A stretch of DNA of 64,000 nucleotides, taken from assembly GCA_012728655.1 (NCBI GenBank), contig JAAYEQ010000026.1:28392-92391 (forward strand). Reading direction: 5' to 3'. Positions 1 through 14,097 of the stretch are shown here, piece by piece (positions within the stretch are counted from its first letter, which is position 1; each line of letters begins with the position of its first letter). The translations under genes were made by a program, and so were the position numbers. Origin of the DNA: Syntrophomonadaceae bacterium (lineage in GTDB: Bacteria > Bacillota > Syntrophomonadia > Syntrophomonadales > DTU052). The notes below the pieces were generated by a model. That model was given only the letters and a program-made list of their open reading frames with translations. It did no database searches and was not told the origin of the DNA.

Positions 1-221
1 GCTGCATCGGCGGAGGAGGCCAGCCCCTGACGCGGACCGACCGGGATCGAGCCCGCCGCATGCAGGCCATATACGATGAGGATCGGGGCCGGCAGCGCAG
101 GAAAGCACACGAGAATCAAGAGGTGAAAGCGCTGTACCAAGATTACCTGGGAAGCGTTATGAGCCACAAAGCGCATGAACTGCTGCACACCAGGTATACC
201 CTGAAGAGAAAGAATACCTAG
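1..221 (+). CDS. [FeFe]-hydrogenase catalytic subunit, C-terminal fragment (5' end outside window)
   Basis: Frame 3 reads CIGGGGQPLTRTDRDRARRMQAIYDEDRGRQRRKAHENQEVKALYQDYLGSVMSHKAHELLHTRYTLKRKNT*. It carries the end of H-cluster motif L3 (C-x-GGGQP) and the conserved HydA C-terminal tail. Stop TAG at 219-221. Confidence 0.8.
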   Translation, partial: CIGGGGQPLTRTDRDRARRMQAIYDEDRGRQRRKAHENQEVKALYQDYLGSVMSHKAHELLHTRYTLKRKNT

Positions 222-560
222 CGGTGTCAAGACCGGGGTTAGAGCGGGTTCTATACCGGGCCGGGATCCGGCCGGTGCCCGCATGCCGGAGGCTGCATCA
301 ACCTGCCGCCTTGCGACGGTGGAGGATCCTGCAGCGTCCGGCGCTTTCCCGGCGCGATAACTGATGTATGGAAACCGCCATGCCCCTGTGTTCATTGCCA
401 GGATCTTCCCCCGGAGCTACCCCTCAACAGCACGTAGAAACGAGTCGAAAATTGACGAATATTAGTGTATAATATAGATGGTTTGCTTAAGACTTTACAG
501 AACGTGCCGCCAGTCATTGGTTACCATTGAACTAACTCGACTGGGGGGAGGGTTGAGCAA

Positions 561-3260
561 ATGGGTGAAGATTTAATTCCCATTATTGGCATAAATGAAG
601 AGAACTGTACCAACTGTCATCAATGCATTGCTGTTTGTCCGGTCAAGTTTTGCAGTGACGGCAGCGGCGATGTTGTCAAGTTCAACAACAACCTGTGCAT
701 CGGGTGCGGTCGCTGCATCGAGGCCTGCATAAAGAGTCATGGGGGAGTTATCGAAAAGAGTGCCCGTTATGCTATCGATGACAGCGAGGAATTCGTTAAT
801 AGCCTGGACTCTCGGGAGATAGTGGCTCTGGTAGCACCGTCGGCTCACGGCAACTTCAACCTGGGCCGGCTTATTACTGCCTTGAAAAAGTTGGGGGTTA
901 AGGGAGTATACGATGTTTCGCTGGGAGCGGAGATTACTGTAGCCTGCTACCATCGGATCATAGAAAGCGGGGATTTCGAACCGCCGGTTATTGCGACTCC
1001 CTGTCCTTCGGTGGTTCAATTTATTGAACTCCATCACCCCCTCCTTTTAAGGTATCTGGCCCCGGTTGGCAGTCCGGTATACAATCTGGGTGTTTATGTG
1101 CGGTCACTGCATCCGGGTGCGGAACTGGCTTTCATATCCCCCTGCCTGGCCAAGAGACGGGAGTTCCAAGAGAGCAGGATGGTTGATTACAACGTGACCT
1201 ACCGGTCGCTGCAGAGGATCCTGCGGGAGAGGAATATCGATCTGGATTCACTGGAGGAGAGTGAATTTGACGGCGGTGTAAAAGCCGGAATCACCACCAA
1301 TTTCTCCAGTGCCGGCGGGCTGAAGGAATCGTTTCTCTTCCATTACCCGGAGATTCCGGCCAGTAAAATTGTGAAGGTCGACGGACCGTTTGTATTTAAC
1401 GGCTACCTGGACAACCTGGAGAAGGCGATTGTCGAGAAAAGTGAGCATCTTCCCCTGTTGGTGGACATCCTGAGCTGTGAGAAAGGATGTAACATGGGGG
1501 TAGGGTGCATTAATAAAACGGTGGAGCTGACGGATTATCTGACCGCTACTCGCGCCGAGAGAGCCATAAAGGACCGGGAGGCCCAGGAAAGGCTGAAGAA
1601 GTTCCTGGATGAGGTACTGGCTGCCCATAACTTTTCCTATCGCAAATACCGGGACCTGTCACGACGCAGGGAGATCAAGATTCCTACCGACGCCGAGTTG
1701 GAAAAGATATACCGTGACATGCACAAGGTTGAAGAAAAGGAATTCCGCAATTGTGCCGCCTGCGGGTACAACTCCTGCTATCAGATGGCGGTGGCCATAT
1801 TCAACGGACTGAATAAGGCGGCCAACTGCCACCTCTATCAGGAAAAGGAACTGCGGATCGAACAGGAAGCCCTGCAACGGATACACTCCAACCTGACCAA
1901 TGTTTTTGACACCATGTCGGACGGAGTCATCGTATTGGACAAGGCCGGCCGGGTTACCAACTTCAACCGAGCCGCCCTTGAGATCACGGGTTATTCGGGT
2001 AATGATCTGCTGGGTGCCAGTGTGGTTGATCTCTTTTCCGGGAAAGCGCCCGGCACCCTTAAACTGCTGGAAACAGGAGAAGCCTTTGCCGACCGTGAGA
2101 TCCTTCTGGATGGGAAACGCGGCAAGATCCATGCTACCGCCACCGGAAAACCCATCCTTGATGCGGAGAACCGGGTCATAGGGGCTACCATATTTCTGAT
2201 ACCCATTGCCCAGGTAACGCAGTTGGTCAACAAGTTTTCAGGTGCCCAGGCCAACTTTACATTTGCTTCGATAATCGGTGAAGACCCGCAGCTGAAAAAC
2301 GCAGTAAACCTGGCGATGATGGCGGCCACCAACTCTTCCACCGTTCTGCTGCAGGCGGAGAGCGGCACCGGCAAAGAGGTGTTTGCCCAGGCTATTCATA
2401 ACGCCAGTGCGCGCAGCAACGGGCCCTTTGTGGCCATCAACTGCGCGGCGATACCGAGGGACCTGGTGGGCAGCGAATTGTTCGGTTACGCCGAGGGCGC
2501 CTTCACCGGAGCCAAGCGCGGAGGACGACCGGGCAAGTTTGAACTGGCCAACAAAGGCACTCTTTTGCTGGATGAGATCGGAGACATGCCCCTGGAGCAG
2601 CAGGGGGCGTTACTGCGGGCCATACAGGAAAAGGCCGTGATGAGAGTGGGAGGAGACACCCCCATCAAAGTTGATGTAAGAATAATTGCCGCTACCAACC
2701 AGAACCTGCTTGCTCTGGTGGACCAGGGAAGATTCCGGGCCGATCTCTATTACCGGCTTAATGTGATCAAGATCAACATTCCTCCACTGCGAGAACGGCG
2801 GGGCGATATCAGGCTCTTTTTCAACCATTTCCTGACGGAAATGTCGCAGAGGTTGGGCCGCAGGATTTCCGGGGTCGAATCGGAGGTCTACAAGTACCTG
2901 GAGGAATATGACTGGCCGGGAAATGTCCGCGAATTGCAGAACGTGCTGGAAAGAATGATTCTGGTTTCCCCGAACGGTGTCTTGACGGTAGACTCCCTTC
3001 CGCGAGAGATTATCGAAAAAAGCAGGTCAGGTGCACCGGCGCGAGCGAGGTCCGGTTGGACGGCTGATGACCAGACCGTGTTCCCGGAACAGCCGCTGGA
3101 TCGAAAAACGCGGAAGATGCTGGCCGGCGAACAGGAGAAAAAACAGATAATCAGGGTCCTGAATGAGTGTGCCGGCAATGTCAGCAAAGCCTCGGCTATG
3201 CTGGGGATTTCTCGCAATACCATGTACAAGAAGATGAAAAAATACAATATCGTTAATTAG
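561..3260 (+). CDS. sigma54-dependent transcriptional activator with N-terminal 2x[4Fe-4S] ferredoxin and HydS-type sensory [FeFe]-hydrogenase-like domain, then PAS, AAA+ and Fis-type HTH
   Basis: 899-aa ORF with SD GGGGGGAGGG 8 nt upstream. Two ferredoxin motifs: [12 protein letters not shown] and [12 protein letters not shown]-cluster-like motifs: ATPCPS (Cys148), SPCLAKRRE (Cys195), [12 protein letters not shown] (Cys306/310/316). Accessory cluster motif Cx2Cx4Cx16C at C398/C401/C406/C423. PAS at about aa 440-550. Walker [14 protein letters not shown] loop at nt 2496-2513. C-terminal [28 protein letters not shown]. Confidence 0.9.
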
Positions 3261-3267
3261 CCTGATC

Positions 3268-3326
3268 TGTCACCCGATTGTCAACCCGGGTACGGTGGTT
3301 TACAAAAAGGTGACAAATGCTGACAC
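3268..3326 (+). promoter_or_regulatory. candidate upstream activator sequence (four TGTCA pentamers in inverted arrangement)
   Basis: TGTCA at 3268-3272 and 3279-3283. TGACA at 3311-3315 and 3321-3325. Pentamer pairs are spaced 10-11 bp (one helical turn). The block lies about 250-300 bp upstream of the sigma54 promoter at 3573. Confidence 0.4.
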
Positions 3327-3427: not shown

Positions 3428-3459
3428 CCGCAGCCTTTATGAGGCTGCGGTTTCTTTTT
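3428..3459 (+). terminator. intrinsic terminator after the regulator gene
   Basis: Stem CCGCAGCC / GGCTGCGG, 7-nt loop, followed by TTTCTTTTT. A second weaker hairpin CCGGC/GCCGG plus T7 lies at 3524-3547. Confidence 0.6.
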
Positions 3460-3572
3460 GCCCGGATTTGAGGGACGGTAACACCGCTGTCCGTCCGTCC
3501 GCCGGACACTGCGGTTTTTCTGTCCGGCTTTAAGGCCGGTTTTTTTCCGAACCCTGCTCGCTGACGCCAATG

Positions 3573-3588
3573 TGGCACGCAATTTGCA
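3573..3588 (+). promoter_or_regulatory. sigma54 (-24/-12) promoter
   Basis: TGGCACgcaatTTGCA matches the TGGCAC-N5-TTGCW consensus exactly. It lies about 75 nt upstream of the ATG at 3662. A sigma54 activator gene is immediately upstream. Confidence 0.85.
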
Positions 3589-3661: not shown

Positions 3662-4231
3662 ATGACAACCACAGCAGCAACGAAGCAAAAGGTCATTACT
3701 CCGTTGGGCAGCGCCTATACCAGAGCGGTGGAGGATTTCGTAAAAGCGATCACTTGTCCTCGTTGTGAGTACGATGTTTATGCCGTCGGCATCGCTTTGG
3801 AGTACTTTGTTGGTTCGGTGTTCATGACGCTGGCTGAGATGGGCCGGGATGTTGCCAGGTCGGAGTATACGCATCTGGCCATGATGCAACTGGAAAGAAA
3901 AGAAAAAATAGTGGCGGTCAACAACAACAAGCTTAACCAGATGCTGCAGTATTTCTACGACAACGGAGGTCCGATTATCGAGCCGCCGGTGGATGAACAG
4001 AAGGCTGCCCGAATCGCACCGCGATTCAAGGCCATCATCAACGAATTCTGTGACCGCATGGATGCCCTGGTAACCAAGGCATCCGCCGGCAGGATCGGGG
4101 TACGCGAGATGGAGAAGGAGACCAATGCCGCCGTTCTCGAAGTTTACACGGCCATGAAGGCTCTGTATCGCGAGTATGAATTGCGGAACGCCTTTGATGA
4201 TTTGCTCAGCTTCAGGACCAATAAGGACTGA
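3662..4231 (+). CDS. hypothetical protein, N-terminal ComFB-like Cys motif (sigma54-dependent target)
   Basis: Start moved to ATG 3662, which has SD AAGGAGGGAG 5 nt upstream. The ORF-track start at 3572 overlaps the promoter. 189 aa. Motif ITCPRCEYDVYAVGIAL resembles the ComFB C-x2-C-x2-DV-x-A-x2-L signature. The rest is not recognised. Confidence 0.7.
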   Translation: MTTTAATKQKVITPLGSAYTRAVEDFVKAITCPRCEYDVYAVGIALEYFVGSVFMTLAEMGRDVARSEYTHLAMMQLERKEKIVAVNNNKLNQMLQYFYDNGGPIIEPPVDEQKAARIAPRFKAIINEFCDRMDALVTKASAGRIGVREMEKETNAAVLEVYTAMKALYREYELRNAFDDLLSFRTNKD

Positions 4232-4360: not shown

Positions 4361-4392
4361 CCTCCCTCTATGGCGGGAGGTTTTATTTGTTT
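4361..4392 (+). terminator. intrinsic terminator
   Basis: Stem CCTCCC / GGGAGG with 8-nt loop, followed by TTTTATTTGTTT. A longer hairpin GGACCAGGCTG/CAGCCTGGTCC at 4285-4321 precedes it. Confidence 0.6.
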
Positions 4393-4488: not shown

Positions 4489-5655
4489 TTGCACAGGTTT
4501 AAACAGGTGGCTTTATTGTTGAGCCTTTTGTTGTTGCTCGGATTGGCGGTCGGTTGCGGCGGTGGCAGCCAGACGACCGGCGGAAGTGATGAGGATGTTG
4601 TCAAGGTCGGCTTTCTGGGGGCCCTAACCGGAGATGTGGCCTGTTACGGTATTCCGGGCCTAAAGGGGCTTGAACTGGCGGTGGAGGAGATAAACGCCAA
4701 TGGCGGAATCCTCGGCAAGAAAGTGGTCATTGTCAAGGAAGACAACGCCGGTGATAAAACCGAAGCCGCATCCATAGTTAAGAAATTCATCAGCAAGGAC
4801 AAGGTTAACGCGATAATCGGGGATCCCTGCACCGGCATCACCATAGTTGCGGCCAGGATTGCCCAGGATCATGAGATGGTTCTCATTTCTCCCGGAGCTT
4901 GCGGCGAGGGAGCTATTGACGCAGGTGATTACTGTTTCCGCAACACCCTGTTGGACAAAATGGCCTGTCCGGCAGTAACCAAATACCTGATTGACAAGGG
5001 CTACAAGAATTTTGCCCTGGTTACCGCGATTAATGACGAGTACAGCGTAGGATTGTCCAACTATTTCCGTGCTGCCTTGAAGGAGTATGGCGGCAACATC
5101 GTGATCGAGGAGAGCATTCAGAGAGGTGACACCAATTTTGCCGCCCAGGTGACCAAGATCAAGCCCACCAACCCGGATATTATAATTTTCACCGGGTACT
5201 ACCAGGAAGCAGCGCTTTTCATGAAAGAGGTGCGCAAGCAGGGGATGGATCAGATTTTCGTCGCCGGGGACGGCTGCCTGGGTGAGGAATTGTACAAACT
5301 CGGCGGTGACGCGGTTGAAGGCGGTATCGTCTACTGCGGGTTCTCACCGGAGCAGAACAGGCCCGAGGTGAAGGAATTCCTGGATGCTTACGCCAAGAAA
5401 TATAACGGAGAATTGGCCGATATGTTCGCCGCCCAGTATTATGATGCGATGTATATCGTAGCCCAAGCCATGGAAAGGGCCGGCAGCACCGATCCCAAGG
5501 TCTACAAGGCTGAGATGGCCAACACCAAGGATTTCCCCGGCGTTTCAGGAATTACAACCTTTGGACCGGACCGCGAGCCGATCAAGAATCCCGTATTCCT
5601 GTTGCAGGTGAAGGACAACAGTTTCAAGCTTCTGGATACGGCAGAGGTTATCTAA
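4489..5655 (+). CDS. branched-chain amino acid ABC transporter substrate-binding lipoprotein (LivK/LivJ family)
   Basis: TTG start with SD GGGGAGGG. Signal peptide with lipobox LAVGC. Type I periplasmic-binding-fold sequence (VKVGFLGALTGD...). First gene of a livHMG-type operon. Confidence 0.85.
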   Translation: MHRFKQVALLLSLLLLLGLAVGCGGGSQTTGGSDEDVVKVGFLGALTGDVACYGIPGLKGLELAVEEINANGGILGKKVVIVKEDNAGDKTEAASIVKKFISKDKVNAIIGDPCTGITIVAARIAQDHEMVLISPGACGEGAIDAGDYCFRNTLLDKMACPAVTKYLIDKGYKNFALVTAINDEYSVGLSNYFRAALKEYGGNIVIEESIQRGDTNFAAQVTKIKPTNPDIIIFTGYYQEAALFMKEVRKQGMDQIFVAGDGCLGEELYKLGGDAVEGGIVYCGFSPEQNRPEVKEFLDAYAKKYNGELADMFAAQYYDAMYIVAQAMERAGSTDPKVYKAEMANTKDFPGVSGITTFGPDREPIKNPVFLLQVKDNSFKLLDTAEVI

Positions 5656-5771
5656 ACCAGTTATATATTTAAAATCCTGTCACTGAAAGCGATGGGTGGG
5701 GAGGGAAAATTGAACTAGACCGGTTCCACTTCTCCACCCATGTTTGTGGATGCGATGTTTCGGAGGAGTAT

Positions 5772-6647
5772 ATGTTCTGGCAGCAGTTGATAAACGGTCT
5801 GACTCTGGGCAGCTCCTACGCCCTGATCGCCCTGGGCTATACCATGGTGTACGGAATAATACAATTGATAAATTTTGCCCACGGCGAGATCTATATGTTC
5901 GGCGCCTTTGTGGGGCTGTTCCTGGTCTTGACATTTAAGGTCAATATCTTTGTCGCCGTCCTGGGAGCGATGATCTTCTGCATGCTTTTGGGGATGCTGA
6001 TCGAGAGGGTGGCATATCGCCCCTTGCGCGGTTCTTCACGCCTGTCGGCACTGATAAGCGCCATCGGGGTTTCCATTTTTCTGTCCACGCTGATGGTCCT
6101 GATCCGGGGACCCAAGGTCACCAGCTACCCTGCGGGTATCTTCAAGATTGCGTACTTCGATCTGGGTACGGTTGAGATTTCCAGCCTGCAGATTATCATA
6201 CTGGTGACAGCCGGACTCTTGATGCTGGGATTACAGCTCCTGATTCAACACACCCGCATCGGCAAGGCCATGCGCGCCTGCTCACAGGACCTGGATGCGG
6301 CGCGGCTGATGGGAATCAATGTAGATCGCGTGATATCCTTTACCTTTGCCGTGGGTTCGGCCTTGGCAGCCGCCGGTGGCGTAATGGTGGGGATTTACTA
6401 CAATGCCGTGCAGCCCTATATGGGACTTATGGCCGGGCTGAAGGCGTTCGCGGCGGCGGTTCTCGGAGGAATCGGTTCCGTCCCCGGGGCCATGGCGGGA
6501 GGTATGGTCCTGGGAATCCTGGAGAACCTGGGGATTGCTTATCTGTCTTCTTCGTACAAGGATGCTATAGCTTTCGGTATCTTGATCCTGTGCCTGCTGG
6601 TGCGCCCCCAGGGATTGCTGGGCAAGGCTACCACCAAGAAAGTCTGA
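5772..6647 (+). CDS. livH: branched-chain amino acid ABC transporter permease LivH
   Basis: N-terminus MFWQQLINGLTLGSSYALIALGYTMVYGIIQLINFAHGE is typical of LivH. SD GGAGGAG. Confidence 0.9.
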   Translation: MFWQQLINGLTLGSSYALIALGYTMVYGIIQLINFAHGEIYMFGAFVGLFLVLTFKVNIFVAVLGAMIFCMLLGMLIERVAYRPLRGSSRLSALISAIGVSIFLSTLMVLIRGPKVTSYPAGIFKIAYFDLGTVEISSLQIIILVTAGLLMLGLQLLIQHTRIGKAMRACSQDLDAARLMGINVDRVISFTFAVGSALAAAGGVMVGIYYNAVQPYMGLMAGLKAFAAAVLGGIGSVPGAMAGGMVLGILENLGIAYLSSSYKDAIAFGILILCLLVRPQGLLGKATTKKV

Positions 6648-6732
6648 CGGCAGTTTGCGAAAAATCCCCTCAGTTAAGCGCAAGCAGGAGCAGTTCACGT
6701 TGGAGTATCTGGTCATGGCACGGAGGTAAGCC

Positions 6733-7635
6733 GTGGAAGCGTTTATCCTGCAGTATGTAGATATATATGTTCTGCAAATAATGGTTTTGATCGGCATCAA
6801 CATAATTATGGCCCTGGGTTTAAACCTGATCACCGGAGTGACCGGGCAATTGTCCATGGGCCATGCGGGATTTATGAGCATTGGTGCCTATACCTCGGCC
6901 ATCCTTTCTTTGCATTACGGCATGCCCTTCTGGTTCTGCCTGGCGGCGGCGGGGTTGATGGCCGCTTTGGCCGGAGTTTTCATTGGAATACCGACCCTGA
7001 GGCTGGAAGGAGACTACCTGGCCATGGTCACCATCGGTTTTGCCGAGATCGTGCGGGTGGTATTCCTTAATCTGGACATTGCCGGCCGCGGAATGGGGCT
7101 GTCCGGGATACCGGCCACCACCAACTTTACCCTGGTCTGGGGGCTGGTTATTGTCATTGTGCTTTTAAACGCCGGACTTTTGAAGTCGAGACCCGGGCGG
7201 GCGCTGTATTCGATACGCGAGGACGAGATCGCGGCCGAGGCTTCGGGAGTCAATACCACCCTCTACAAAGTGGTGGCCTTCGCCATTGGCACCTTCCTGG
7301 CCGGTATCGGCGGGTCGCTCTATGCCCATTACCTAACCTACATCAGTCCCCAGGACTTCGACTTTATGAGGTCGGTCGAGTATTTGAACATGGTGGTTTT
7401 GGGAGGAATGGGCAGCATCCCCGGAACCATTCTGGGAACGGTGATTCTGACCATCCTTCCCGAGGTTTTGCGTTTTGTACAGGATTACCGGCTGCTGTTC
7501 TACGGCGCCTTGCTGGTTACACTCATGATATTCCGGCCCAATGGACTGCTGGGCGATGTGCGCTGGATCGATGTTAAGCGGACCTGGGCGCGGATAAGAG
7601 GGCAGTCCCTGGCCTCATCCAGTTCTGACAGTTAG
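6733..7635 (+). CDS. livM: branched-chain amino acid ABC transporter permease LivM
   Basis: GTG start with SD GGAGG. LNLITGVTGQLSMGHAGFMSIGAY is typical of LivM. Confidence 0.85.
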   Translation: MEAFILQYVDIYVLQIMVLIGINIIMALGLNLITGVTGQLSMGHAGFMSIGAYTSAILSLHYGMPFWFCLAAAGLMAALAGVFIGIPTLRLEGDYLAMVTIGFAEIVRVVFLNLDIAGRGMGLSGIPATTNFTLVWGLVIVIVLLNAGLLKSRPGRALYSIREDEIAAEASGVNTTLYKVVAFAIGTFLAGIGGSLYAHYLTYISPQDFDFMRSVEYLNMVVLGGMGSIPGTILGTVILTILPEVLRFVQDYRLLFYGALLVTLMIFRPNGLLGDVRWIDVKRTWARIRGQSLASSSSDS

Positions 7636-7679
7636 GGGAAAGCCATTACCAGGTTTATCCTGGAAAGCTGGGAGATATC

Positions 7680-8441
7680 ATGGCGATTTTGGAAATTAAA
7701 AATGTCAGTCAGGAGTTTGGAGGTCTCCTGGCCCTGGACCGGGTGAGTATGACGGTGGAAAAGGGAGAAATCTTCGGGTTGATTGGTCCCAACGGCGCCG
7801 GCAAGACCACCCTGTTTAACCTTATCACCGGGATTTACCGCCCCAGTTCGGGGGAAGTGTGGTTTCAAGGACGCTCCATTGGAGGGCTTAGACCCTACCG
7901 CATTGCTACGGTTGGAATCGGGCGGACTTTTCAGAACATCCGCCTGTTCAAGAAACTCTCGGTGTTGGATAATGTGCGGGTGGGGATGCATTCGGTTTCC
8001 CGGGCGGGTTTTGTATCCGCCATGCTTCATACCCCCTGGGCGGTAAAGCGCGAAAAGGTTACCTGCGAGAAGTCCATGGCCTTGTTGAAACTGGTGGGAC
8101 TGGAGAATAAGGCCATCGAACTGGCGGGAAGCCTGCCCTACGGCGAACAGCGCCGCCTGGAGATAGCACGGGCTATGGCTCTGGAGCCGTCCCTGCTTCT
8201 GCTGGACGAGCCGGCAGCCGGCATGAACGCAACCGAGAAGGAAGAACTGCTGGTTCTGATCCGCAGGATTCGGGAGATGGGAGTGACCGTTCTCCTGGTG
8301 GAACACGATATGAACGTGGTCATGAACATCTGCGATCGTATTGCCGTCCTGGATTATGGCCGCAAGATTGCCGAGGGCACTCCCGAAGAGATAAAAAATA
8401 ACCCTCGGGTTATAGAATCCTACCTCGGGGTGGAGTTGTGA
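7680..8441 (+). CDS. livG: branched-chain amino acid ABC transporter ATP-binding protein LivG
   Basis: Walker [10 protein letters not shown], signature [14 protein letters not shown], Walker [11 protein letters not shown], and the LivG-type C-terminal tail. Confidence 0.9.
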
Positions 8442-9301: not shown

Positions 9302-10268
9302 ACAGGTCGGTTTTGGGGTAATAGTGTTTAAGGATCTGCTCGGCGGTTTTGCCTTCCTTGGCCATTTCGTAGGCCCCCCACTGGGACATGCCGCACCCGT
9401 GCCCCCAACCGGCGCCGGTGAAGACAACGTTGTTGCCCTTTACCGTTATATCGGTGATCAGGGTTGATCTCAGACGCTCGGGACCCAGTTTGGTCCTGAG
9501 GTCGTAGCCCTTGACGCTTTTGTTGCCGGCAGTAATGTCAATCGCCCGCCCGCTGGGGCCTTTGCGGGTAATCTTGATAGCATTCAAATCAGCACCGCTG
9601 CCAAAGATGGCCTGCAGTTCGGATTTGGGTATCGAAGCCTGCCAGCGGCGCTCCCGTTCCGGCGCATACTTGGCACCGGGAGAGTCAACAACCTCGGTAT
9701 AGGCCCCGGCGATATCCTCGAGTTCGGGAAAACTCTCCTCCAGCGAAGCCGTTTTGGGCCCGGCATAGGAATGGAACAGGGCATAGGCAAATTTTCCGTT
9801 GTAGAGCAAAACCTGGCCCCGGGTCTCCTCAACCGCCTTGGTGATTTCAGGGGTTACCTCCGCCCGGCTGTATGCCTGGAAGTGTTCCGGGAGGTCGCAG
9901 GTATCGGTGTTGTGTTCATTGTGAACCCCGCCGCGTATGATCTTGGCCATGGTCATGGTCCGTGCAACTATGGCCTGGGCCTTCAGCGCTTCCTCGGGGA
10001 ATTTGGGGCCGATCTCGGCGGCCACCACACCCTCCAGATACTTCTCCAAGGGCATTCTTTCTGTGGTATTGTTCTGATGGAGGTAAACGGTAATCTCAGG
10101 TTCTTCATTGTATTTTCTGACTTCCGGTGCCGGGGTTACCGGCTTGCGCGGGGTAGGACCCCGCATTTCCTGGTTCACAATCAGGATTCCCACCAGCAGG
10201 ATGGCAGCGATTGCCAGGAGCCAAAGGGAGGTCTTGTTCTTAAATATATCCTTGAATCCGCTCTGCAT
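9285..10268 (-). CDS. spoIID: stage II sporulation protein D (SpoIID/LytB lytic transglycosylase)
   Basis: N-terminal membrane anchor. C-terminal GAGWGHGCGMSQWGAYEMAKEGKTAEQILKHYYP is diagnostic of SpoIID. SD GGGGGTGA. Confidence 0.9.
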   Translation of the reverse strand: MQSGFKDIFKNKTSLWLLAIAAILLVGILIVNQEMRGPTPRKPVTPAPEVRKYNEEPEITVYLHQNNTTERMPLEKYLEGVVAAEIGPKFPEEALKAQAIVARTMTMAKIIRGGVHNEHNTDTCDLPEHFQAYSRAEVTPEITKAVEETRGQVLLYNGKFAYALFHSYAGPKTASLEESFPELEDIAGAYTEVVDSPGAKYAPERERRWQASIPKSELQAIFGSGADLNAIKITRKGPSGRAIDITAGNKSVKGYDLRTKLGPERLRSTLITDITVKGNNVVFTGAGWGHGCGMSQWGAYEMAKEGKTAEQILKHYYPKTDLFKAWE

Positions 10269-10563
10269 CTTGACTCACCCCCGTCATTTCTGCTCCTAGG
10301 TTCCCCGCCCTTACCGTTTGTTATTCGACAATGCGTCTGCTATCATAATCCTGAAGCCCGGGCTTTCGCCCCGGCATTAAGCGCCGCAAATTTATCTTAT
10401 ACAGGGCTTGTGGTTCCCGAGGAACAACTGCCGGGAGTGGCGAAAACACAGCCCGTATCCGTTTGCAGGCCCAAAACTGGTATGGTTACATTCTCACCGT
10501 GGTAGCAGACTGGATTATGTTTGGAGTCAACGGTTATTTCGGAAACTCTGAGGATGGTGTGGG

Positions 10564-11022
10564 ATGAACATAGTTCTGGTTGAACCGGAAATACCTCAGA
10601 ATACAGGCAATGTCGCCCGTACCTGCGCTCTGACCTACAGTACCCTGCACCTGGTAAGGCCCCTGGGGTTTTCCCTCGAGGACCGCTACCTTAAAAGGGC
10701 CGGTCTTGATTACTGGGAACACGTACAGGTGGTGGTGTGGAACAGTTTCCGGGAGATAGTTGAGGCCAATCCCAACGGGAGGTTCTTTTTGGCTACCACC
10801 AGGGCACACACCAGCTATAATCAGATCAGGTATGAGCCGGACGACTTCCTGGTGTTTGGAAAGGAAACGGCAGGATTGCCCGCCGATATCTTGTCCATGT
10901 TCCCCGAAAGCCACATCCGGATCCCCATGCGTGACCTGGGGCGCTCCCTGAATCTGGCCAACTCGGTGGCCATTATCCTGTATGAGGCCCTGCGGCAGAT
11001 GGGGTACCCGGGGCTGCGGTAA
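10564..11022 (+). CDS. trmL: tRNA (cytidine/uridine-2'-O-)-methyltransferase TrmL (SpoU family)
   Basis: MNIVLVEPEIPQNTGNVARTCA...LKRAGLDYW...NLANSVAIILYEALRQ matches the TrmL/YibK signature. Confidence 0.9.
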   Translation: MNIVLVEPEIPQNTGNVARTCALTYSTLHLVRPLGFSLEDRYLKRAGLDYWEHVQVVVWNSFREIVEANPNGRFFLATTRAHTSYNQIRYEPDDFLVFGKETAGLPADILSMFPESHIRIPMRDLGRSLNLANSVAIILYEALRQMGYPGLR

Positions 11023-11120
11023 AAGGGGCGCCAACCTCCCTGCGGAATGGAATCTCCCGCCAGGCAGGCTTTTCCGGTGGCAAAAACCCTCTGCTGCGGG
11101 GCAAATCCAACATGAAACTA

Positions 11121-11155
11121 AAAGACCTCGTTTGTTTACCGAGGTCTTTCGTTTG
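11121..11155. terminator. bidirectional intrinsic terminator between trmL and the ferredoxin gene
   Basis: Perfect 10-bp stem AAAGACCTCG / CGAGGTCTTT with 9-nt loop. A-rich on the 5' side and T-rich on the 3' side. Confidence 0.65.
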
Positions 11156-11161
11156 GTAGTT

Positions 11162-11338
11162 CTATTCTTCGCCTTCTTTTATAGCTTCGGTGGGACATAC
11201 CTCGGCACACGAGCCGCAATCCGTGCATTTTTCCGGATCGATAACGTATTTGTCCTCGCCCTCGCTTATGGCTTCAACTGCGCATTCGTCAACACAAACG
11301 CCGCAGCTAATGCACTCATCAGTGATTACATGGGCCAT
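11162..11338 (-). CDS. 2x[4Fe-4S] clostridial-type ferredoxin (58 aa, below ORF-track cutoff)
   Basis: Reverse-strand translation: MAHVITDECISCGVCVDECAVEAISEGEDKYVIDPEKCTDCGSCAEVCPTEAIKEGEE*. Two CxxCxxCxxxC(P) motifs. SD GGGGAGGGAG 6 nt upstream. Confidence 0.9.
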   Translation of the reverse strand: MAHVITDECISCGVCVDECAVEAISEGEDKYVIDPEKCTDCGSCAEVCPTEAIKEGEE

Positions 11339-11448
11339 CTATTTCTCCCTCCCCACATTGTTAGATAGTAACGTTATTATATTATCATAATAGGGCAAAT
11401 GAAGCATTATTTCCAGGCAAGAAATGATACGGCTTAGGAGGTTGGAGC

Positions 11449-12093
11449 TTGAGGTTTCTTCTGATGGCGAATGGAGAATATGGAGAGTTGGAGTGGTACC
11501 GGCCATTCAAGGACGATTTTGACCGGATAATTTGCATTGACGGGGGAACCGATCGGGCTATGGCGCTGGGAATAACCCCCTGGCGAGTGGTGGGTGATAT
11601 GGACTCAATTTCGGAGGAGGCCAGGGCTTATGCGACTTCCCTGGGTGCAGCCTTTACCGTGGTGCCGCGGGAGAAGGATAATACCGATTTTCAACTGGCC
11701 CTGGAACTGGCACAAAAGGCTGGAGCCGGAAGTATTGTTGTCTGGGGCGGAACCGGTACGCGCCTTGATCACAGTCTTTCCAATCTTTTCAGCGCCACCA
11801 GCCTGGTCCTGCAGGGTATTGAGGTTTGTTTTTGCTCCCCACGGGAATATGTCTACCTGGTGAGCCGTCATCTGGTCCTGCCGGGGAAGGTTGGGGATAC
11901 GGTATCCCTTATTACCGTGGGAGATGAGGCCGGAGGGGTTACCCTGCGGGGATTTCAGTATCCGCTGGACAACGCGGTTCTCGACGGCCGCTGGCAGTGT
12001 GCCGTATCCAACGTCATTGTCGAACCAAATCCCGAAGTGACAGTCGGAAGCGGGGTAGTAGCTGTTATTCATTATCATGGGGAATTACCGTGA
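11449..12093 (+). CDS. thiN: thiamine pyrophosphokinase
   Basis: TTG start with SD AGGAGG. IICIDGG...VVGDMDSI...KDNTDFQLALE...GGTGTRLDHSLSN matches the TPK catalytic and thiamine-binding motifs. Confidence 0.85.
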   Translation: MRFLLMANGEYGELEWYRPFKDDFDRIICIDGGTDRAMALGITPWRVVGDMDSISEEARAYATSLGAAFTVVPREKDNTDFQLALELAQKAGAGSIVVWGGTGTRLDHSLSNLFSATSLVLQGIEVCFCSPREYVYLVSRHLVLPGKVGDTVSLITVGDEAGGVTLRGFQYPLDNAVLDGRWQCAVSNVIVEPNPEVTVGSGVVAVIHYHGELP

Positions 12094-12307
12094 ACAAGCC
12101 CGGATTATAATGTTAAATGCGCCTCACAACCGGGCACCGAATAATTAAACCACATCTCGCCCAGAATAAGTTTATCAGCATAAAAAGAAGGGGCGCCGGA
12201 CCCGTTTTCATCTCGGCCCTGCAGCAGCCGGGATTCGAAGAGCCGCCCGGTTTGAATGGGCAGGGTTAATTCGGGAGCCTTGGAAGGAGGTTGTAACAGA
12301 GATTAAG

Positions 12308-12577
12308 ATGGGAAAGCCATTGGGACCAGTTATGGACAAGAAAGACTTTATGAGTAATGGGATTTTTGACAAGGAACCCTATGAAGGACTGTTGATAAGC
12401 GCCCGTCCAGACGGCAAGCTGGATATCGGGATCCAGCTCACCGAAGATAAAGTTCTCAAGGTTGACGAGGCGTACGGTGAGGAGGTACGGGATAAGATCG
12501 CTCACTGGACGCCGCAGATCCTCGCTATCCAGAGGCAATGGGGAGAAAATCCCGATCTCCAGAATTACGACGGTTAG
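12308..12577 (+). CDS. hypothetical protein (89 aa)
   Basis: SD GGAAGGAGG upstream. Followed by hairpin GCGGAGGTG/CACCTCCGC at 12579-12600. No recognisable motif. Confidence 0.55.
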   Translation: MGKPLGPVMDKKDFMSNGIFDKEPYEGLLISARPDGKLDIGIQLTEDKVLKVDEAYGEEVRDKIAHWTPQILAIQRQWGENPDLQNYDG

Positions 12578-12909
12578 CGGCGGAGGTGGACTCACCTCCG
12601 CTTCTGACTGTTGGAGCCAGCCAAACCCCACTTACCTTCTCTTCCCGCCATGCGGCCCCGGCATCAATGCCGTTGCCCGTGCGGCAGGAGTCCATTTTCT
12701 TCTTTAGCCCAACTACTACTCGAACACATTGGCCGGCACTGCCTAAGATGGCACCCAAAAGTATGTAAGCTGTAACTTGGTAAGTGTCCGTTTTTAACCC
12801 CCCTTTTATAAAAAGATGGTTATGACGGGCGGAGGTTTACCTCCGCCGAGGTTTGAAGGCAAGCAGAATCCTGCTGTCCTCTCATACCAGACTGGTGTAC
12901 CGACCTCAA

Positions 12910-14097
12910 CTAGAAGAAAACACCGACCCTGTTTTGCAAAAACTCCTCACAATCGGGGACCACTTCCATCTCAATAGCCTTCGGTTTGCAAACCACGACG
13001 CATTGAGCACAGCCGATGCAGCGATGAGCATTTCGGGTATATGTATTATTGACAACGTCAACCGTAACGGCGCCCATCGGGCAGGCGAGGGCACATTTAC
13101 CGCAGTAATTGCACCTGTCCAAATCAACCCTGGGAACAAAGTGCGGCGGTGCGATGCTTGCCGGCGCATTAAACTCAGATACCCTTCTCATAAAATGACA
13201 GCAGTCGCCGCAACAGGAACAGGATGTACCTCCGACTGAAGGATCGCTGGCGTCAATCCAGGTCACCAATCCATTGGCCTCGGCTTCCGCCTTGATTTCC
13301 AGGGCATCTTTCATGGTAATGCGCCGCGACCTTCCCCCTCTGATTGACATTTCGGCAACCGGTCCGAGAGTTATGCACACTTCCATTGGTTTTCCGCATC
13401 CCCGTTCCACGACTTTTTCAGTAATGCGGCACTGGCACAGGGTTAAGCCAAAGGACTTGTACCGGGAATAGACTTCTTCAAGCTTATCGGAAGGATATGC
13501 CATGGGGTTGTTTCTGATTACCTTGCCCATCGGAACATATTTTATGACTGCCGGTTTCTTGGGTTCGTGATCAACGATATAGCCGGTCTCATAAAGCTTC
13601 TCAAATAGCTCACAGAAGCGGCGATGCCACTCGGTGAGGCTGTCCAGGGACTGGCGGGCAAGAACAAACTCGAAAGCCCCGGGCAGAATAGGAATCACCA
13701 TGTATACAGCAGCTTCTCCTTCGCCCAGGCGGAGGATGACATGCTTTTCTTCGGCTATACTGTACAGAATCCTGTTAATTTCCTCAATCGGCAGGTTTTC
13801 CGCCTCAGCCAGCGATTGGGCGGTCTGGGGGATGCCAGGCTTAAAATGCCTCACCACCATGGCTTCCTCTTCAGTAAAGATGTGTTGGATCAGGGCAATG
13901 GATTCATCACATATGGGGACACCGCCCCCGAGATTTTTGTCCGCGTACAGTTGTGCAACCTCCAGATGGGCTTTGGCGACCCCGGGATAATCGTTTACCG
14001 TCTTGACTTTAACGGTTTTGGTCCGGGGCTCGCGTGGACCAATAACACCGTCTTTCACCTGAATCATCCGGTTACGGGCAACTATGGGTTTACTCAT
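12910..14097 (-). CDS. Fe-S protein with C-terminal 2x[4Fe-4S] ferredoxin domain and additional Cys clusters
   Basis: 395 aa. Motifs CNYCGKCALACP and CIGCAQCVVVC, plus CSCCGDCCHF and CQCRITEKVVERGCGKPMEVC. Function of the N-terminal half not recognised. Confidence 0.7.
   Translation of the reverse strand: MSKPIVARNRMIQVKDGVIGPREPRTKTVKVKTVNDYPGVAKAHLEVAQLYADKNLGGGVPICDESIALIQHIFTEEEAMVVRHFKPGIPQTAQSLAEAENLPIEEINRILYSIAEEKHVILRLGEGEAAVYMVIPILPGAFEFVLARQSLDSLTEWHRRFCELFEKLYETGYIVDHEPKKPAVIKYVPMGKVIRNNPMAYPSDKLEEVYSRYKSFGLTLCQCRITEKVVERGCGKPMEVCITLGPVAEMSIRGGRSRRITMKDALEIKAEAEANGLVTWIDASDPSVGGTSCSCCGDCCHFMRRVSEFNAPASIAPPHFVPRVDLDRCNYCGKCALACPMGAVTVDVVNNTYTRNAHRCIGCAQCVVVCKPKAIEMEVVPDCEEFLQNRVGVFF

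What the first reader, a model, noticed from the sequence alone, without database searches (positions are those of the whole stretch)
561..3260. Sensory (HydS-type) [FeFe]-hydrogenase domain fused in one polypeptide to a sigma54 AAA+ activator: a possible direct H2-to-transcription switch
What the sequence shows: the 899-aa protein starts with two ferredoxin motifs. An H-cluster-type domain follows, with all three Cys-bearing motifs recognisable: ATPCPS (Cys148, nt 1002-1004), SPCLAKRRE (Cys195) and [12 protein letters not shown]. In the first motif the canonical TSCCP has lost its first Cys, the proton-relay Cys of catalytic enzymes, which is Pro here. Loss of that Cys is the pattern reported for sensory HydS proteins. 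Next comes an exact Cx2Cx4Cx16C motif (C398/401/406/423, nt 1752-1829), the accessory [4Fe-4S] signature of Group C sensory hydrogenases. After that come a PAS domain, a complete sigma54-interaction module (ESGTGKE, GAFTGA at 2496-2513) and a Fis-type HTH. The gene sits directly downstream of a catalytic [FeFe]-hydrogenase gene, whose C-terminus is at 1-221. Established knowledge: as I recall them, the described sensory [FeFe]-hydrogenase classes signal through separate or fused histidine kinases, MCPs or PP2C phosphatases. I do not know of a characterised member wired directly to a bacterial enhancer-binding protein. Inference: H2 or redox state at the H-cluster would gate AAA+ oligomerisation, making this a one-component H2-responsive sigma54 activator.
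Basis: partly seen in the sequence, partly recalled or inferred. Interest (0 to 1): 0.85.

Follow-up and report, generated by a model that had tools for sequence, protein, structure and literature searches.

The report
Hydrogenase-like sensor fused to sigma54 activator
This gene encodes a transcription activator whose input domain is a sensor-type iron hydrogenase, so it probably switches genes on or off in response to hydrogen; the design was predicted from a genome in 2005 but has never been tested, and this copy is a separate, well-conserved lineage in hydrogen-dependent syntrophic bacteria.

Summary
ORF 561-3260 encodes 899 aa with this domain order: 2x[4Fe-4S] ferredoxin, [FeFe]-hydrogenase H-domain, Cx2Cx4Cx16C cluster, PAS, sigma54 AAA+ (GAFTGA), HTH_8.

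Across 49 orthologues, nearly all Syntrophomonadaceae, all 16 cluster-binding Cys and the 2Fe-site residues (APS, K358, E361 equivalents) are invariant. The proton-relay Cys is Pro in 44 of 49.

I went beyond the finding in two ways. First, a consensus sigma54 promoter (3573) with an upstream inverted-repeat enhancer (3265-3326) drives a conserved ~190-aa protein of unknown function. Second, 24 of 28 genes of that family in related loci carry a near-consensus sigma54 promoter. In the closest relatives a paralogue heads the hydCBA hydrogenase operon just upstream of the fusion gene, with the same enhancer element.

The most likely mechanism is a one-component H2-to-sigma54 switch that controls hydrogenase-linked genes. 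The idea is not new. Wu et al. 2005 described the same fusion (CHY1547) and proposed the same function, and Nie et al. 2019 tabulated the architecture. I found no experimental characterisation.

The window's family arose by an independent fusion from the histidine-kinase/MCP-linked sensor clade.

Verdict: a real, new member of a known (predicted) kind, of moderate interest.

The parts
3..221 (+). 3' end of hydA, the catalytic subunit of an A3-type multimeric [FeFe]-hydrogenase (…GGGQP… to stop)
   Evidence: Frame-3 translation. 88% identical to residues 512-577 of L001 HydA, which has Fer2_4, NADH-G_4Fe-4S_3, Fe_hyd_lg_C (E 3.5e-94) and Fe_hyd_SSU domains and is preceded by NuoE-like and NuoF-like hydC and hydB.
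445..473 (+). sigma70-like promoter of the fusion gene (TCGAAA-17-TATAAT)
   Evidence: 10 of 12 consensus match. The same element lies at the same relative position in L001 (9884-9912). This is a consensus match only.
561..3260 (+). 899-aa fusion protein: sensory [FeFe]-hydrogenase module + PAS + sigma54 AAA+ activator + HTH
   Evidence: 49 full-length orthologues at 60-92% identity.
585..734 (+). two ferredoxin-type [4Fe-4S] motifs (C16/19/22/26 and C46/49/52/56)
   Evidence: Pfam Fer4 families. All 8 Cys are invariant in 49/49.
816..1499 (+). H-domain (H-cluster site): A92-P93-S94, P147 (in place of C299), C148, S193 (M353), C195, K198, E201, L304 (M497), C306, C310
   Evidence: Fe_hyd_lg_C E 1.1e-30. 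PDB sequence hits to HDCR HydA2, CpI and DdH. AF2 model of aa 1-440 has pLDDT 94 and matches solved [FeFe]-hydrogenases at E 1e-19 to 1e-16 with TM 0.60-0.72. The four ligand Cys, APS, K198 and E201 are invariant in 49/49.
1749..1829 (+). accessory [4Fe-4S] motif Cx2Cx4Cx16C (C398/401/406/423)
   Evidence: Exact motif. Invariant in 49/49. PF04060 match at 21.5 bits. The motif is defined for M2e/M2f sensory hydrogenases in PMC8163306.
1899..2207 (+). PAS domain
   Evidence: PF00989 E 1.9e-14, plus PAS_9, PAS_8 and PAS_4.
2271..3041 (+). sigma54-interaction AAA+ domain and lid (Walker [14 protein letters not shown], Walker [11 protein letters not shown]-fingers)
   Evidence: PF00158 E 7e-67 and PF25601 E 1.2e-26. 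GAFTGA in 49/49, with Walker B, sensor I/II and R-finger motifs conserved.
3129..3245 (+). Fis-type HTH_8 DNA-binding domain
   Evidence: PF02954 E 1e-16.
3265..3326 (.). candidate enhancer (UAS): four TGTCA/TGACA half-sites in 11-bp phase (TGTCAC 3268, TGTCAA 3279, GTGACA 3310, CTGACA 3321) within a 22-nt imperfect inverted repeat
   Evidence: Inverted repeat I1, 3265-3286 / 3297-3318. The half-sites keep their position in W, L001, L002, L003 and L045. The core ACAWAAAGGTGACA occurs once in the window and, across the 80 loci, only at regulatory positions, including upstream of the hyd-operon promoters in L001 (4687) and L045 (4662). Binding by this protein is inferred.
3428..3450 (+). intrinsic terminator-like hairpin after the fusion gene (a second one lies at 3524-3539)
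   Evidence: An analogous hairpin (AACGCCCC…GGGGCGTT) sits between the UAS and the promoter in most Syntrophomonas loci.
3573..3588 (+). sigma54 (-24/-12) promoter TGGCACGCAATTTGCA
   Evidence: An equivalent promoter lies next to the fusion gene in about 40 loci. 24 of 28 genes of the ~190-aa family have a score of at least 10/11 upstream, against 3% of random windows.
3662..4231 (+). conserved sigma54-driven target: 189-aa all-helical protein of unknown function ('T189')
   Evidence: RBS AAGGAGG and ATG at 3662. Homologues flank the fusion gene in at least 26 loci. No Pfam or NCBIfam hit. Only 11 clusters in the 5.8-billion-protein database, all unnamed or hypothetical. AF2 pLDDT 85.9 with six helices; no PDB fold match at E below 0.4.
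4361..4380 (+). terminator-like hairpin after the 189-aa gene, separating it from the Liv-type ABC transporter genes (4489-8441)
   Evidence: The ABC genes are identified. They follow T189 only in the closest relatives.

Best explanation
The protein is a one-component, hydrogen-responsive bacterial enhancer-binding protein.

Shown:
- Its N-terminal 440 residues form a complete sensory-type [FeFe]-hydrogenase module: two ferredoxin clusters, an H-cluster site that lacks the proton-relay Cys, and an accessory Cx2Cx4Cx16C cluster.
- This module is joined through a PAS domain to an intact sigma54 AAA+ ATPase and a Fis-type HTH.
- Next to the gene lie a conserved repeat element and a consensus sigma54 promoter that drives a conserved ~190-aa protein.
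- In the nearest relatives a second promoter of the same type, with the same repeat element, drives a paralogue of that protein together with hydC-hydB-hydA, directly upstream of the fusion gene.

Inferred:
- The H-domain receives a [2Fe] subcluster from HydEFG.
- H2 binding or oxidation changes the H-cluster or FeS state, or the conformation of the sensor.
- The PAS linker passes this change on to control AAA+ hexamer assembly.
- The hexamer, bound at the TGTCA/TGACA repeats, remodels sigma54-RNA polymerase at the adjacent promoters.

The result would be an H2 feedback loop on the NADH-linked/confurcating hydrogenase and its companion protein, in bacteria whose fatty-acid oxidation is thermodynamically gated by H2. 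The sign of the response (activation by H2 or by its absence) cannot be read from the sequence.
For: - Architecture and motifs.
- Fold: AF2 pLDDT 94, Foldseek E 1e-19 to 1e-16 against solved [FeFe]-hydrogenases.
- Purifying selection: 49/49 invariance of all 16 cluster Cys, of the A-P-S motif and of the K358 and E361 equivalents. The C299 position is Pro in 44, Ala in 4 and Ser in 1. M353 is Ser in 49/49 and M497 is Leu in 48/49. That Ser/Leu pair is the one reported for TamHydS, which binds [2Fe]adt and reacts with H2 (PMC8163306).
- AAA+ motifs are intact in 49/49.
- Sigma54 promoter next to the fusion gene in about 40 loci. 24 of 28 T189-family genes have a near-consensus promoter, against a 3% background.
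- The same UAS core lies upstream of both sigma54 promoters that flank the fusion gene in L001, and occurs nowhere else.
- The T189'-hydCBA operon has a perfect sigma54 promoter in L001, L045 and L007. L058 has the order fusion, promoter, T189, hydB, hydA.
- hydE, hydG and hydF lie downstream of the fusion/T189 pair in L018.
- An unrelated sigma54-fused sensor lineage also sits immediately upstream of hydCBA.
- rpoN is listed for Syntrophothermus and Syntrophomonas (PMC6615313 supplement).
Against: - There is no experimental evidence for any sigma54-fused member (literature searches).
- Even for TmHydS and TamHydS the sensory role is still called putative (PMC8924675).
- In TamHydS the C-terminal cluster is not reduced by H2, which weakens a simple redox-relay model (PMC13104023).
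- Occupancy of the 2Fe site cannot be shown from sequence.
- Binding of this protein to the proposed UAS is inferred only from position and conservation.
- The main conserved target has no known function.
- The upstream hyd-operon promoter lies outside the window and is seen only in orthologous loci.
Confidence: 0.6

Rival explanations
1. The protein is a redox (ferredoxin or electron-pool) sensor rather than an H2 sensor. The hydrogenase-like module binds only [4Fe-4S] clusters, as in Nar1/NARF-type proteins without a 2Fe subcluster, and it reports the cellular redox state to the AAA+ domain.
For: The proton-relay Cys is lost. Nothing here shows 2Fe occupancy. Four FeS centres form a plausible electron wire. 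In TamHydS the C-terminal cluster is not reduced by H2 (PMC13104023). From my own knowledge, the four H-cluster Cys are also retained in Nar1-like proteins.
Against: Residues that contact the 2Fe subcluster and its CN ligands in catalytic enzymes (A-P-S, K358 and E361 equivalents) are invariant in 49/49. The pocket substitutions (Ser/Leu) match TamHydS, which does bind [2Fe]adt and turns over H2 (PMC8163306). Maturase genes hydE, hydG and hydF lie beside the fusion/T189 pair in L018. The genomic link is to hydrogenase operons specifically.
Confidence: 0.2
2. The PAS domain is the real signal input, binding a small ligand or cofactor. The hydrogenase-like module is then an accessory or structural remnant, and the protein is an ordinary PAS-EBP of the PrdR-like clostridial type.
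For: The C-terminal 460 residues match PAS-sigma54-HTH regulators end to end (NCBIfam PrdR model at 418 bits, below its cut-off). They are about 50% identical to PAS-EBPs that lack any hydrogenase domain (L057-L080). Most clostridial EBPs are PAS-controlled (PMC6615313).
Against: The sensor module is as conserved as the rest of the protein (54-89% in the H-domain), and every cluster ligand is invariant. The other sigma54-fused lineage often has no PAS at all (P0143, P0148 and others), so in that lineage the H-module can act as the input without a PAS domain.
Confidence: 0.12
3. The adjacent sigma54 promoter and the 189-aa gene are controlled by a different EBP, and the fusion protein acts elsewhere. 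The linkage would then be positional only.
For: No binding data exist. Syntrophomonadaceae genomes encode about six EBPs (PMC6615313 supplement). In the window the UAS is about 250-300 bp from the promoter, with terminator-like hairpins in between.
Against: The fusion gene, the promoter and the T189 gene stay together across at least 26 loci despite rearrangement of their order (L008, L006, L049, L058). The repeat element sits directly after the fusion gene's stop codon and recurs at the hyd-operon promoter. EBP genes are typically adjacent to their targets (PMC6615313).
Confidence: 0.08

Closest known systems
CHY1547 of Carboxydothermus hydrogenoformans and its homologues (Wu et al. 2005, PLoS Genet, PMC1287953); the Fer4-Fe_hyd_lg_C-FeS EBPs TherJR_2992 and CFE_2753 (Nie et al. 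2019, PMC6615313)
   Same: An iron-hydrogenase-like sensory module fused to a sigma54 AAA+ activator and an HTH_8. It was predicted to activate genes in response to H2 and is encoded next to hydrogenase genes. It has not been characterised experimentally.
   Different: The window's sensor module belongs to a different clade. It groups with HK-, MCP- and PP2C-fused sensors (bootstrap 99/100), while the other sigma54-fused sensors form their own clade (84/100). Monophyly of all sigma54 fusions got 0/100. The L2 motif is SPC (M353 to Ser) rather than GPC (M353 to Gly). A PAS domain is always present here, whereas many of the others lack it. CHY1547 itself was not in my tree. I place it in the second clade from its described PAS-less architecture.
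TmHydS (group C, M2f) and TamHydS (group D, M2e), putative sensory [FeFe]-hydrogenases
   Same: Two N-terminal [4Fe-4S] motifs, an H-domain without C299, and a C-terminal Cx2Cx4Cx16C cluster. It has a PAS domain like TmHydS, and the M353Ser/M497Leu pocket of TamHydS. The genes are often encoded beside group A hydrogenases (PMC8163306, PMC13104023).
   Different: Those proteins stop after the FeS or PAS domain and need separate, unidentified signalling partners. Here the output (AAA+ and HTH) is in the same polypeptide. The C299 position is Pro rather than the residue found in those enzymes. I did no phylogeny with the TmHydS or TamHydS sequences themselves.
HydDB [FeFe] groups C1 (histidine-kinase-linked) and C2 (chemotactic/MCP-linked), for example Swol_1040 of Syntrophomonas wolfei
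   Same: The sensor modules are the closest relatives at 52-64% identity, from the same bacterial family, with the same invariant residues including Pro at the C299 position. Swol_1040 was detected only in syntrophically grown cells (PMC4324140).
   Different: Their output is a HisKA/HATPase or an MCP signalling domain with no PAS, so they depend on downstream response regulators or the chemotaxis machinery. Here the output is direct sigma54-dependent transcription. HydDB has no sigma54-linked subclass (PMC5037454).
Regulatory [NiFe]-hydrogenase cascade HoxBC-HoxJ-HoxA / HupUV-HupT-HupR (from my own knowledge)
   Same: It has the same logic: a slow, sensor-type hydrogenase controls transcription of hydrogenase genes. 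In Cupriavidus necator the final activator, HoxA, is an NtrC-type regulator that works with sigma54.
   Different: The metal centre and proteins are unrelated ([NiFe], not [FeFe]), and the cascade uses three or four separate proteins with a phosphorelay. Here everything is in one polypeptide. The resemblance is in how it works, not in membership.

Membership tests
Sensory-type (M2e/M2f; group C/D) [FeFe]-hydrogenase | H-domain homologous to the [FeFe]-hydrogenase large subunit | tested here: met
   Fe_hyd_lg_C E 1.1e-30. PDB sequence hits at 5e-24 to 1e-13. AF2 model pLDDT 94 with Foldseek E 1e-19 and TM up to 0.72.
Sensory-type (M2e/M2f; group C/D) [FeFe]-hydrogenase | Four Cys ligands of the H-cluster (C300, C355, C499, C503 in CpI numbering) | tested here: met
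   C148, C195, C306 and C310 align with the catalytic HydA and CpI motifs and are invariant in 49/49.
Sensory-type (M2e/M2f; group C/D) [FeFe]-hydrogenase | Loss of the proton-relay Cys C299 and altered M353/M497 | tested here: met
   P147 (Pro 44, Ala 4, Ser 1 of 49), S193 (49/49), L304 (48/49). The criterion comes from PMC8163306.
Sensory-type (M2e/M2f; group C/D) [FeFe]-hydrogenase | Two N-terminal [4Fe-4S] motifs and a C-terminal Cx2Cx4Cx16C motif; a PAS domain after it in group C | tested here: met
Sensory-type (M2e/M2f; group C/D) [FeFe]-hydrogenase | Phylogenetic placement with reference group C/D sequences (TmHydS, TamHydS, HydDB set) | tested here: inconclusive
   No reference sequences were available. 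The sensor nests among HK- and MCP-fused sensors, which match the HydDB C1/C2 definitions by partner domain, but it has the pocket residues of TamHydS.
Sensory-type (M2e/M2f; group C/D) [FeFe]-hydrogenase | Binds a [2Fe] subcluster and reacts with H2 | not testable with these tools
   Needs maturation plus FTIR/EPR. Indirect support comes from invariant APS/K198/E201 and from hydEGF beside the gene pair in L018.
Bacterial enhancer-binding protein (sigma54 activator, NtrC-type AAA+) | Sigma54-interaction AAA+ domain with Walker A/B, the GAFTGA loop and arginine fingers | tested here: met
   PF00158 E 7e-67. GAFTGA in 49/49 with Walker B, sensor and R-finger motifs conserved.
Bacterial enhancer-binding protein (sigma54 activator, NtrC-type AAA+) | C-terminal DNA-binding HTH and a cognate -24/-12 promoter with upstream repeats nearby | tested here: met
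   HTH_8 E 1e-16. Promoter at 3573 and repeats at 3265-3326, both conserved across loci. Actual binding was not tested.
Bacterial enhancer-binding protein (sigma54 activator, NtrC-type AAA+) | rpoN (sigma54) present in the genome | not testable with these tools
   I did not find rpoN among the window ORFs I annotated. Nie et al. list rpoN for S. lipocalidus (Slip_1854) and S. wolfei (Swol_0265).
CHY1547-type sigma54-fused hydrogenase-like regulators (Wu 2005) | Same domain composition (hydrogenase-like sensor + sigma54 AAA+ + HTH) | tested here: met
CHY1547-type sigma54-fused hydrogenase-like regulators (Wu 2005) | Common descent of the fusion (sensor modules forming one clade) | tested here: not met
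   Monophyly of all sigma54-fused sensors got 0/100 bootstraps. The window's family lies inside the HK/MCP clade (99/100). Caveats: this is an NJ tree on 420 columns, and CHY1547 itself was not included.
Nar1/NARF-like degenerate hydrogenase homologues | Loss of the residues that hold the 2Fe subcluster while the [4Fe-4S] Cys are kept | tested here: not met
   The A-P-S, K358 and E361 equivalents are invariant, so the protein is not filed here. The definition of the family is from my own knowledge.

The most novel reading that the evidence does not exclude
Obligate syntrophs (Syntrophomonadaceae) independently built a single-polypeptide H2-to-transcription switch by joining an HK/MCP-type sensory hydrogenase module to a PAS-sigma54 activator. 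Through a shared enhancer it controls both the NADH-linked/confurcating HydABC operon and a previously unrecognised ~190-aa helical protein family. That family would be either a new hydrogenase-associated factor or a PspA-like feedback modulator of the activator. A paralogous branch controls an AAA+/VWA chaperone-like pair. If so, this would be the first defined regulon and the first direct physiological read-out for any 'putative sensory' [FeFe]-hydrogenase.
Probability: 0.35. Interest if true: 0.7.

Novelty: new member of a known kind. Interest (0 to 1): 0.45.

Why it matters
The sensory role of group C/D [FeFe]-hydrogenases is still called putative, because their signalling partners and outputs are unknown (PMC8924675, PMC13104023).

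A version with the transcriptional output in the same polypeptide, and with a mapped promoter, enhancer and target genes, turns the question 'does this H-cluster sense H2?' into a simple assay. The assay would measure H2-dependent ATPase activity, open-complex formation or reporter expression from the 3573 promoter.

The organisms matter too. Syntrophomonadaceae oxidise fatty acids only when H2 is kept very low, so a direct H2 feedback on their NADH-dependent hydrogenase operon would be a central control point of methanogenic carbon flow.

The protein could also serve as a compact, genetically encoded H2 biosensor.

The conserved ~190-aa sigma54-dependent protein, which heads hydCBA operons in some genomes, is a new candidate hydrogenase-associated factor.

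Tried and rejected
- The Liv-type ABC transporter (4489-8441) as the regulated output: rejected. A terminator-like hairpin at 4361-4380 follows the 189-aa gene, and the transporter follows it only in the four closest relatives.
- 'Always next to a catalytic hydrogenase': rejected as a family trait. Only 6 of about 50 loci have hydABC within 10 kb.
- Function of the 189-aa protein: no result. There were no Pfam or NCBIfam hits even at E = 10. A PDB profile search gave nothing below E 0.2. Foldseek against the PDB gave nothing below E 0.4, only weak resemblance to ferritin-like and four-helix bundles.
- My strict sigma54 regular expression missed weaker promoters (L009, L058, L024, L028, L031). 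A scored scan recovered them.
- Other sigma54-like matches in the window (16022-, 21859-, 32169+) are weaker, are not linked to an EBP or to T189, and I treat them as chance.
- The Greening 2016 ISME J survey (PMC4817680) is not held, so I could not check it for sigma54-linked subclasses.
- The first bootstrap script timed out. I reran it with a faster distance calculation.
- Identifying the exact source organism: the best match is 92% to a Syntrophothermus MAG. The S. lipocalidus EBPs listed by Nie et al. include none labelled Fe_hyd. I left this unresolved because it does not affect the verdict.


Full report
**1. The observation**

The ORF 561..3260 (+) encodes 899 aa.
- two CxxCxxCxxxC ferredoxin motifs (C16-26 and C46-56);
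- ATPCPS, with C148 at nt 1002-1004;
- SPCLAKRRE (C195, K198);
- [12 protein letters not shown] (C306, C310);
- an exact Cx2Cx4Cx16C motif (C398/401/406/423, nt 1752-1829);
- ESGTGKE, and GAFTGA at nt 2496-2513.

Pfam finds Fer4 families, Fe_hyd_lg_C (aa 86-313, E 1.1e-30), PAS (447-549), Sigma54_activat (571-738, E 7e-67), AAA_lid_14 and HTH_8 (857-895). PF04060 'FeS' matches the accessory motif just below its cut-off.

Sequence alignments to CpI and HDCR HydA2 place ATPCP on TSCCP, so C299 becomes Pro147 and C300 is Cys148. They place PCLAKRRE on PCTSKKFE. An AlphaFold model of aa 1-440 is confident (pLDDT 94, pTM 0.91). It matches solved [FeFe]-hydrogenases (CbA5H, DdHydAB, HDCR HydA2, TmHydABC, CpI) at E 1e-19 to 1e-16 with TM 0.60-0.72.

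The upstream fragment 3-221 is the C-terminus of a HydA. It is 88% identical to the end of a 577-aa HydA in the orthologous locus L001. A consensus sigma54 promoter, TGGCACGCAATTTGCA, lies at 3573.

**2. The family and the selection on it**

A scan of one genome per species found about 50 genomes with a full-length orthologue (residues ~3-899, 60-92% identity). Nearly all are Syntrophomonadaceae (Syntrophomonas, Syntrophothermus), including the cultured Syntrophomonas zehnderi OL-4. The best match is 92%, to a Syntrophothermus MAG, so the window is probably from a Syntrophothermus.

In a 49-member alignment the following are invariant:
- all eight ferredoxin Cys;
- the four H-cluster Cys;
- the four accessory-cluster Cys;
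- the A-P-S motif;
- the equivalents of K358 and E361.

The proton-relay position C299 is Pro in 44, Ala in 4 and Ser in 1. M353 is Ser in 49/49 and M497 is Leu in 48/49.

According to Land et al. 2020 (PMC8163306), M2e/M2f sensory hydrogenases are defined by:
- two N-terminal clusters;
- the Cx2Cx4Cx16C motif;
- loss of C299;
- altered M353/M497 (Gly/Ser in TmHydS, Ser/Leu in TamHydS).

Group C has in addition a PAS domain. So the window protein has the group C domain order with the pocket residues of TamHydS.

The AAA+ motifs (GAFTGA, Walker B, sensor I/II, arginine fingers) are conserved throughout. This pattern argues against a degenerate, Nar1-like domain and for a functional metal site. 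It cannot prove that a 2Fe subcluster is bound.

**3. The regulatory cassette and its targets**

A sigma54 promoter lies next to the fusion gene in about 40 loci. In most it is 107-550 bp downstream on the same strand, as in the window. In a monophyletic subgroup of 10 loci it is about 220 bp upstream and divergent.

In the window-type arrangement the first gene after the promoter is a conserved ~190-aa protein (window 3662-4231). Of 28 genes of this family in the fetched loci, 24 have a promoter scoring at least 10 of 11 consensus positions within 80-350 bp upstream. Only 3% of random 530-bp windows from the same loci reach that score. The binomial P is about 5e-33, although the loci are not phylogenetically independent.

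Between the stop codon and the promoter the window carries a 22-nt imperfect inverted repeat (3265-3286 / 3297-3318). It contains four TGTCA/TGACA half-sites in 11-bp phase, followed by terminator-like hairpins (3428-3450 and 3524-3539). Syntrophomonas loci have related AAAGTGTCRC…GYGACACTTT palindromes and a terminator at the same relative place.

The key link to hydrogen metabolism is in L001, L045 and L007. There, a paralogue of the ~190-aa protein is the first gene of an operon with hydC (NuoE-like), hydB (NuoF-like) and hydA, immediately upstream of the fusion gene. That operon has a perfect sigma54 promoter; in L001 it is TGGCACGCTTATTGCA. In L058 the order is fusion gene, sigma54 promoter, ~190-aa gene, hydB, hydA.

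The enhancer core ACAWAAAGGTGACA occurs exactly once in the 64-kb window, at 3302. In L001 it occurs twice: about 170 bp upstream of the hyd-operon promoter (4687) and about 300 bp upstream of the promoter that follows the fusion gene (12742). Apart from the equivalent sites in L002, L003 and L045, it occurs nowhere else in the 80 loci.

The window starts inside hydA, so its own upstream promoter cannot be seen. In L018 the maturase genes hydE, hydG and hydF (NCBIfam equivalogs) lie a few kb downstream of the fusion/T189 pair. The fusion gene itself has a sigma70-like promoter (445-473).

**4. The ~190-aa target**

It has no Pfam or NCBIfam match. It forms only 11 clusters in a 5.8-billion-protein database, all unnamed or 'hypothetical'. 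A strongly conserved YFYDNGGPIIEPPVDE motif runs through the family. The predicted fold is a six-helix, all-alpha structure (pLDDT 85.9) with no significant match in the PDB. Its function is unknown.

Two ideas fit its position and neither is tested:
- a hydrogenase-associated factor;
- a PspA-like feedback partner of the activator.

The Liv-type ABC transporter downstream is separated from it by a terminator-like hairpin and is not conserved in that position, so I do not count it as part of the regulon.

**5. Mechanism**

Shown by sequence and comparison: a complete sensor-type hydrogenase module, PAS, an intact sigma54 AAA+ domain, an HTH, and an adjacent conserved enhancer, promoter and targets, which include a hydrogenase operon in the closest relatives.

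Inferred: the H-domain is matured by HydEFG. H2 at the H-cluster changes the redox state or the conformation of the sensor. PAS relays this to AAA+ assembly. The hexamer activates the flanking sigma54 promoters.

The sign of the response is unknown. The recent finding that the C-terminal cluster of TamHydS is not reduced by H2 (PMC13104023) favours a conformational relay over a simple redox relay.

The rivals, with confidences that sum to 1 with the best explanation at 0.60, are:
- a ferredoxin/redox sensor without a 2Fe subcluster (0.20);
- PAS as the true input (0.12);
- the adjacent promoter belonging to another EBP (0.08).

**6. Comparison with what is known**

HydDB lists only C1 (HK-linked), C2 (MCP-linked) and C3 (phosphatase-linked) sensory [FeFe] subclasses, all marked putative (PMC5037454). 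Recent reviews mention no sigma54-linked class.

The fusion has nevertheless been described. Wu et al. [quoted passage not shown] They described it as a sigma54-dependent regulator with an iron-hydrogenase-like sensory module, predicted to activate genes in response to hydrogen and located next to a [NiFe] hydrogenase cluster. They listed homologues in Moorella, Geobacter and Desulfuromonas (PMC1287953).

Nie et al. 2019 listed Fer4, Fe_hyd_lg_C and FeS among EBP input domains and tabulated two such EBPs, without assigning a regulon that I could find (PMC6615313). No paper in the library follows up CHY1547, and none describes an experiment on any member.

An exhaustive HMMER search of 1.84 billion representatives shows one cluster for the window's family and at least 16 further clusters of sigma54-fused sensors, with or without PAS. 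One example is Candidatus Frackibacter. Databases name these proteins simply 'sigma 54-interacting transcriptional regulator'.

**7. Independent origin**

The sensor module of the window's family is 52-64% identical to HK- and MCP-fused sensors of the same bacterial family. In an NJ tree of 160 sensor modules the 51 sigma54-fused Syntrophomonadaceae sequences are monophyletic and nested among the HK-fused ones.

I then added the distant sigma54 fusions and ran 100 bootstraps:
- clade A (HK-, MCP-, PP2C- and hybrid-HK-fused sensors plus the window's family): 99/100;
- clade B (all other sigma54 fusions): 84/100;
- monophyly of all sigma54 fusions: 0/100.

The L2 motif agrees with this split: SPC in clade A and GPC in clade B. 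So the same architecture arose at least twice, or the sensor module was swapped.

In clade B loci the fusion gene also sits immediately upstream of hydC-hydB-hydA, with sigma54-like promoters before hydC. The functional theme is therefore shared by both lineages.

Caveats: these are distance trees on 420 columns, and CHY1547, TmHydS and TamHydS were not themselves available.

**8. Verdict**

It remains untested, and it is not new as an idea.

The window protein is a new member of a predicted but uncharacterised kind: a separate, Syntrophomonadaceae-specific lineage. Interest is moderate (0.45). A specialist would not be greatly surprised. However, the defined promoter, enhancer and targets, including a hydrogenase operon, make the long-open question of whether 'sensory' [FeFe]-hydrogenases really sense H2 directly testable.

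Noticed in passing
window 3662-4231; paralogues at L001 4957-5454, L045 4953-5450, L007 2850-3377, L058 9565-10026: A ~190-aa all-helical protein family with no known domain (conserved motif YFYDNGGPIIEPPVDE), apparently restricted to Syntrophomonadaceae. It is almost always preceded by a sigma54 promoter, and in several genomes it is the first gene of a hydC-hydB-hydA operon. It may be a new hydrogenase-associated factor or a feedback regulator.
   Followed up: partly
L032-L038, L041, L042, L048 (e.g. L033 about 9780 going down to about 6000, minus strand of the locus): A monophyletic paralogous branch of the fusion family has a divergent sigma54 promoter about 220 bp upstream. It drives a ~405-aa AAA+ protein (weak Mg-chelatase/MoxR-like hits) followed in some loci by a ~589-aa VWA-domain protein. 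This is a chaperone-like pair of the kind often involved in metallo-enzyme maturation. Some genomes carry both branches (contig CAXXWF010000001: L016 and L048).
   Followed up: partly
L018 about 9900-13800: hydE, hydG and hydF (H-cluster maturases, NCBIfam equivalog scores 579, 926 and 526 bits) lie downstream of the fusion gene and its ~190-aa target, after a membrane metallophosphoesterase-like ORF.
   Followed up: partly
L001 4-4614: In the closest relative, a membrane-bound group-4 [NiFe]-hydrogenase-like cluster (Proton_antipo_M, NADHdh, Oxidored_q6, Complex1_49kDa/NiFeSe_Hases, Fer4) lies directly upstream of the sigma54-dependent T189'-hydCBA operon. Two hydrogenase systems and the sensor-regulator are therefore clustered.
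   Followed up: no
L009 and L055 (same contig, JBMNOY010000026.1): One contig carries both the sigma54-fused sensor and, roughly 13 kb away, a second sensor module that matches only residues 5-441 (HK/MCP type). A single organism therefore wires the same sensor type to different outputs.
   Followed up: no
window C316 (nt 1506-1508): An extra Cys just after the L3 motif (GCNMGVGC) is conserved in 45 of 49 family members and has no counterpart in the catalytic HydA. Its role is unknown.
   Followed up: no
window 16345-18861 (+) and 16022 (-): An 838-aa methyl-accepting chemotaxis protein whose ~600-residue N-terminal region has no Pfam match. A weaker sigma54-like sequence (TGGCATCAGTTTTGCT) lies nearby on the opposite strand, inside or upstream of a GerM-like gene, and is probably chance.
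   Followed up: no
L081/L082 10244-10628; L083 10559-10744: In the unrelated sigma54-fused sensor lineage (Ca. Frackibacter and a Clostridiales MAG), the fusion gene is immediately followed by hydC-hydB-hydA, with sigma54-like promoters (TGGAATAAAAATTGCA and TGGCATGAAATATGCT) 40-60 bp before hydC.
   Followed up: partly
window 4489-8441: A Liv-type ABC transporter cluster (binding protein, two permeases, one ATPase with the BCA_ABC_TP_C tail) is followed directly by an EamA transporter gene. I saw only one ATPase gene where LivG and LivF are usual.
   Followed up: no
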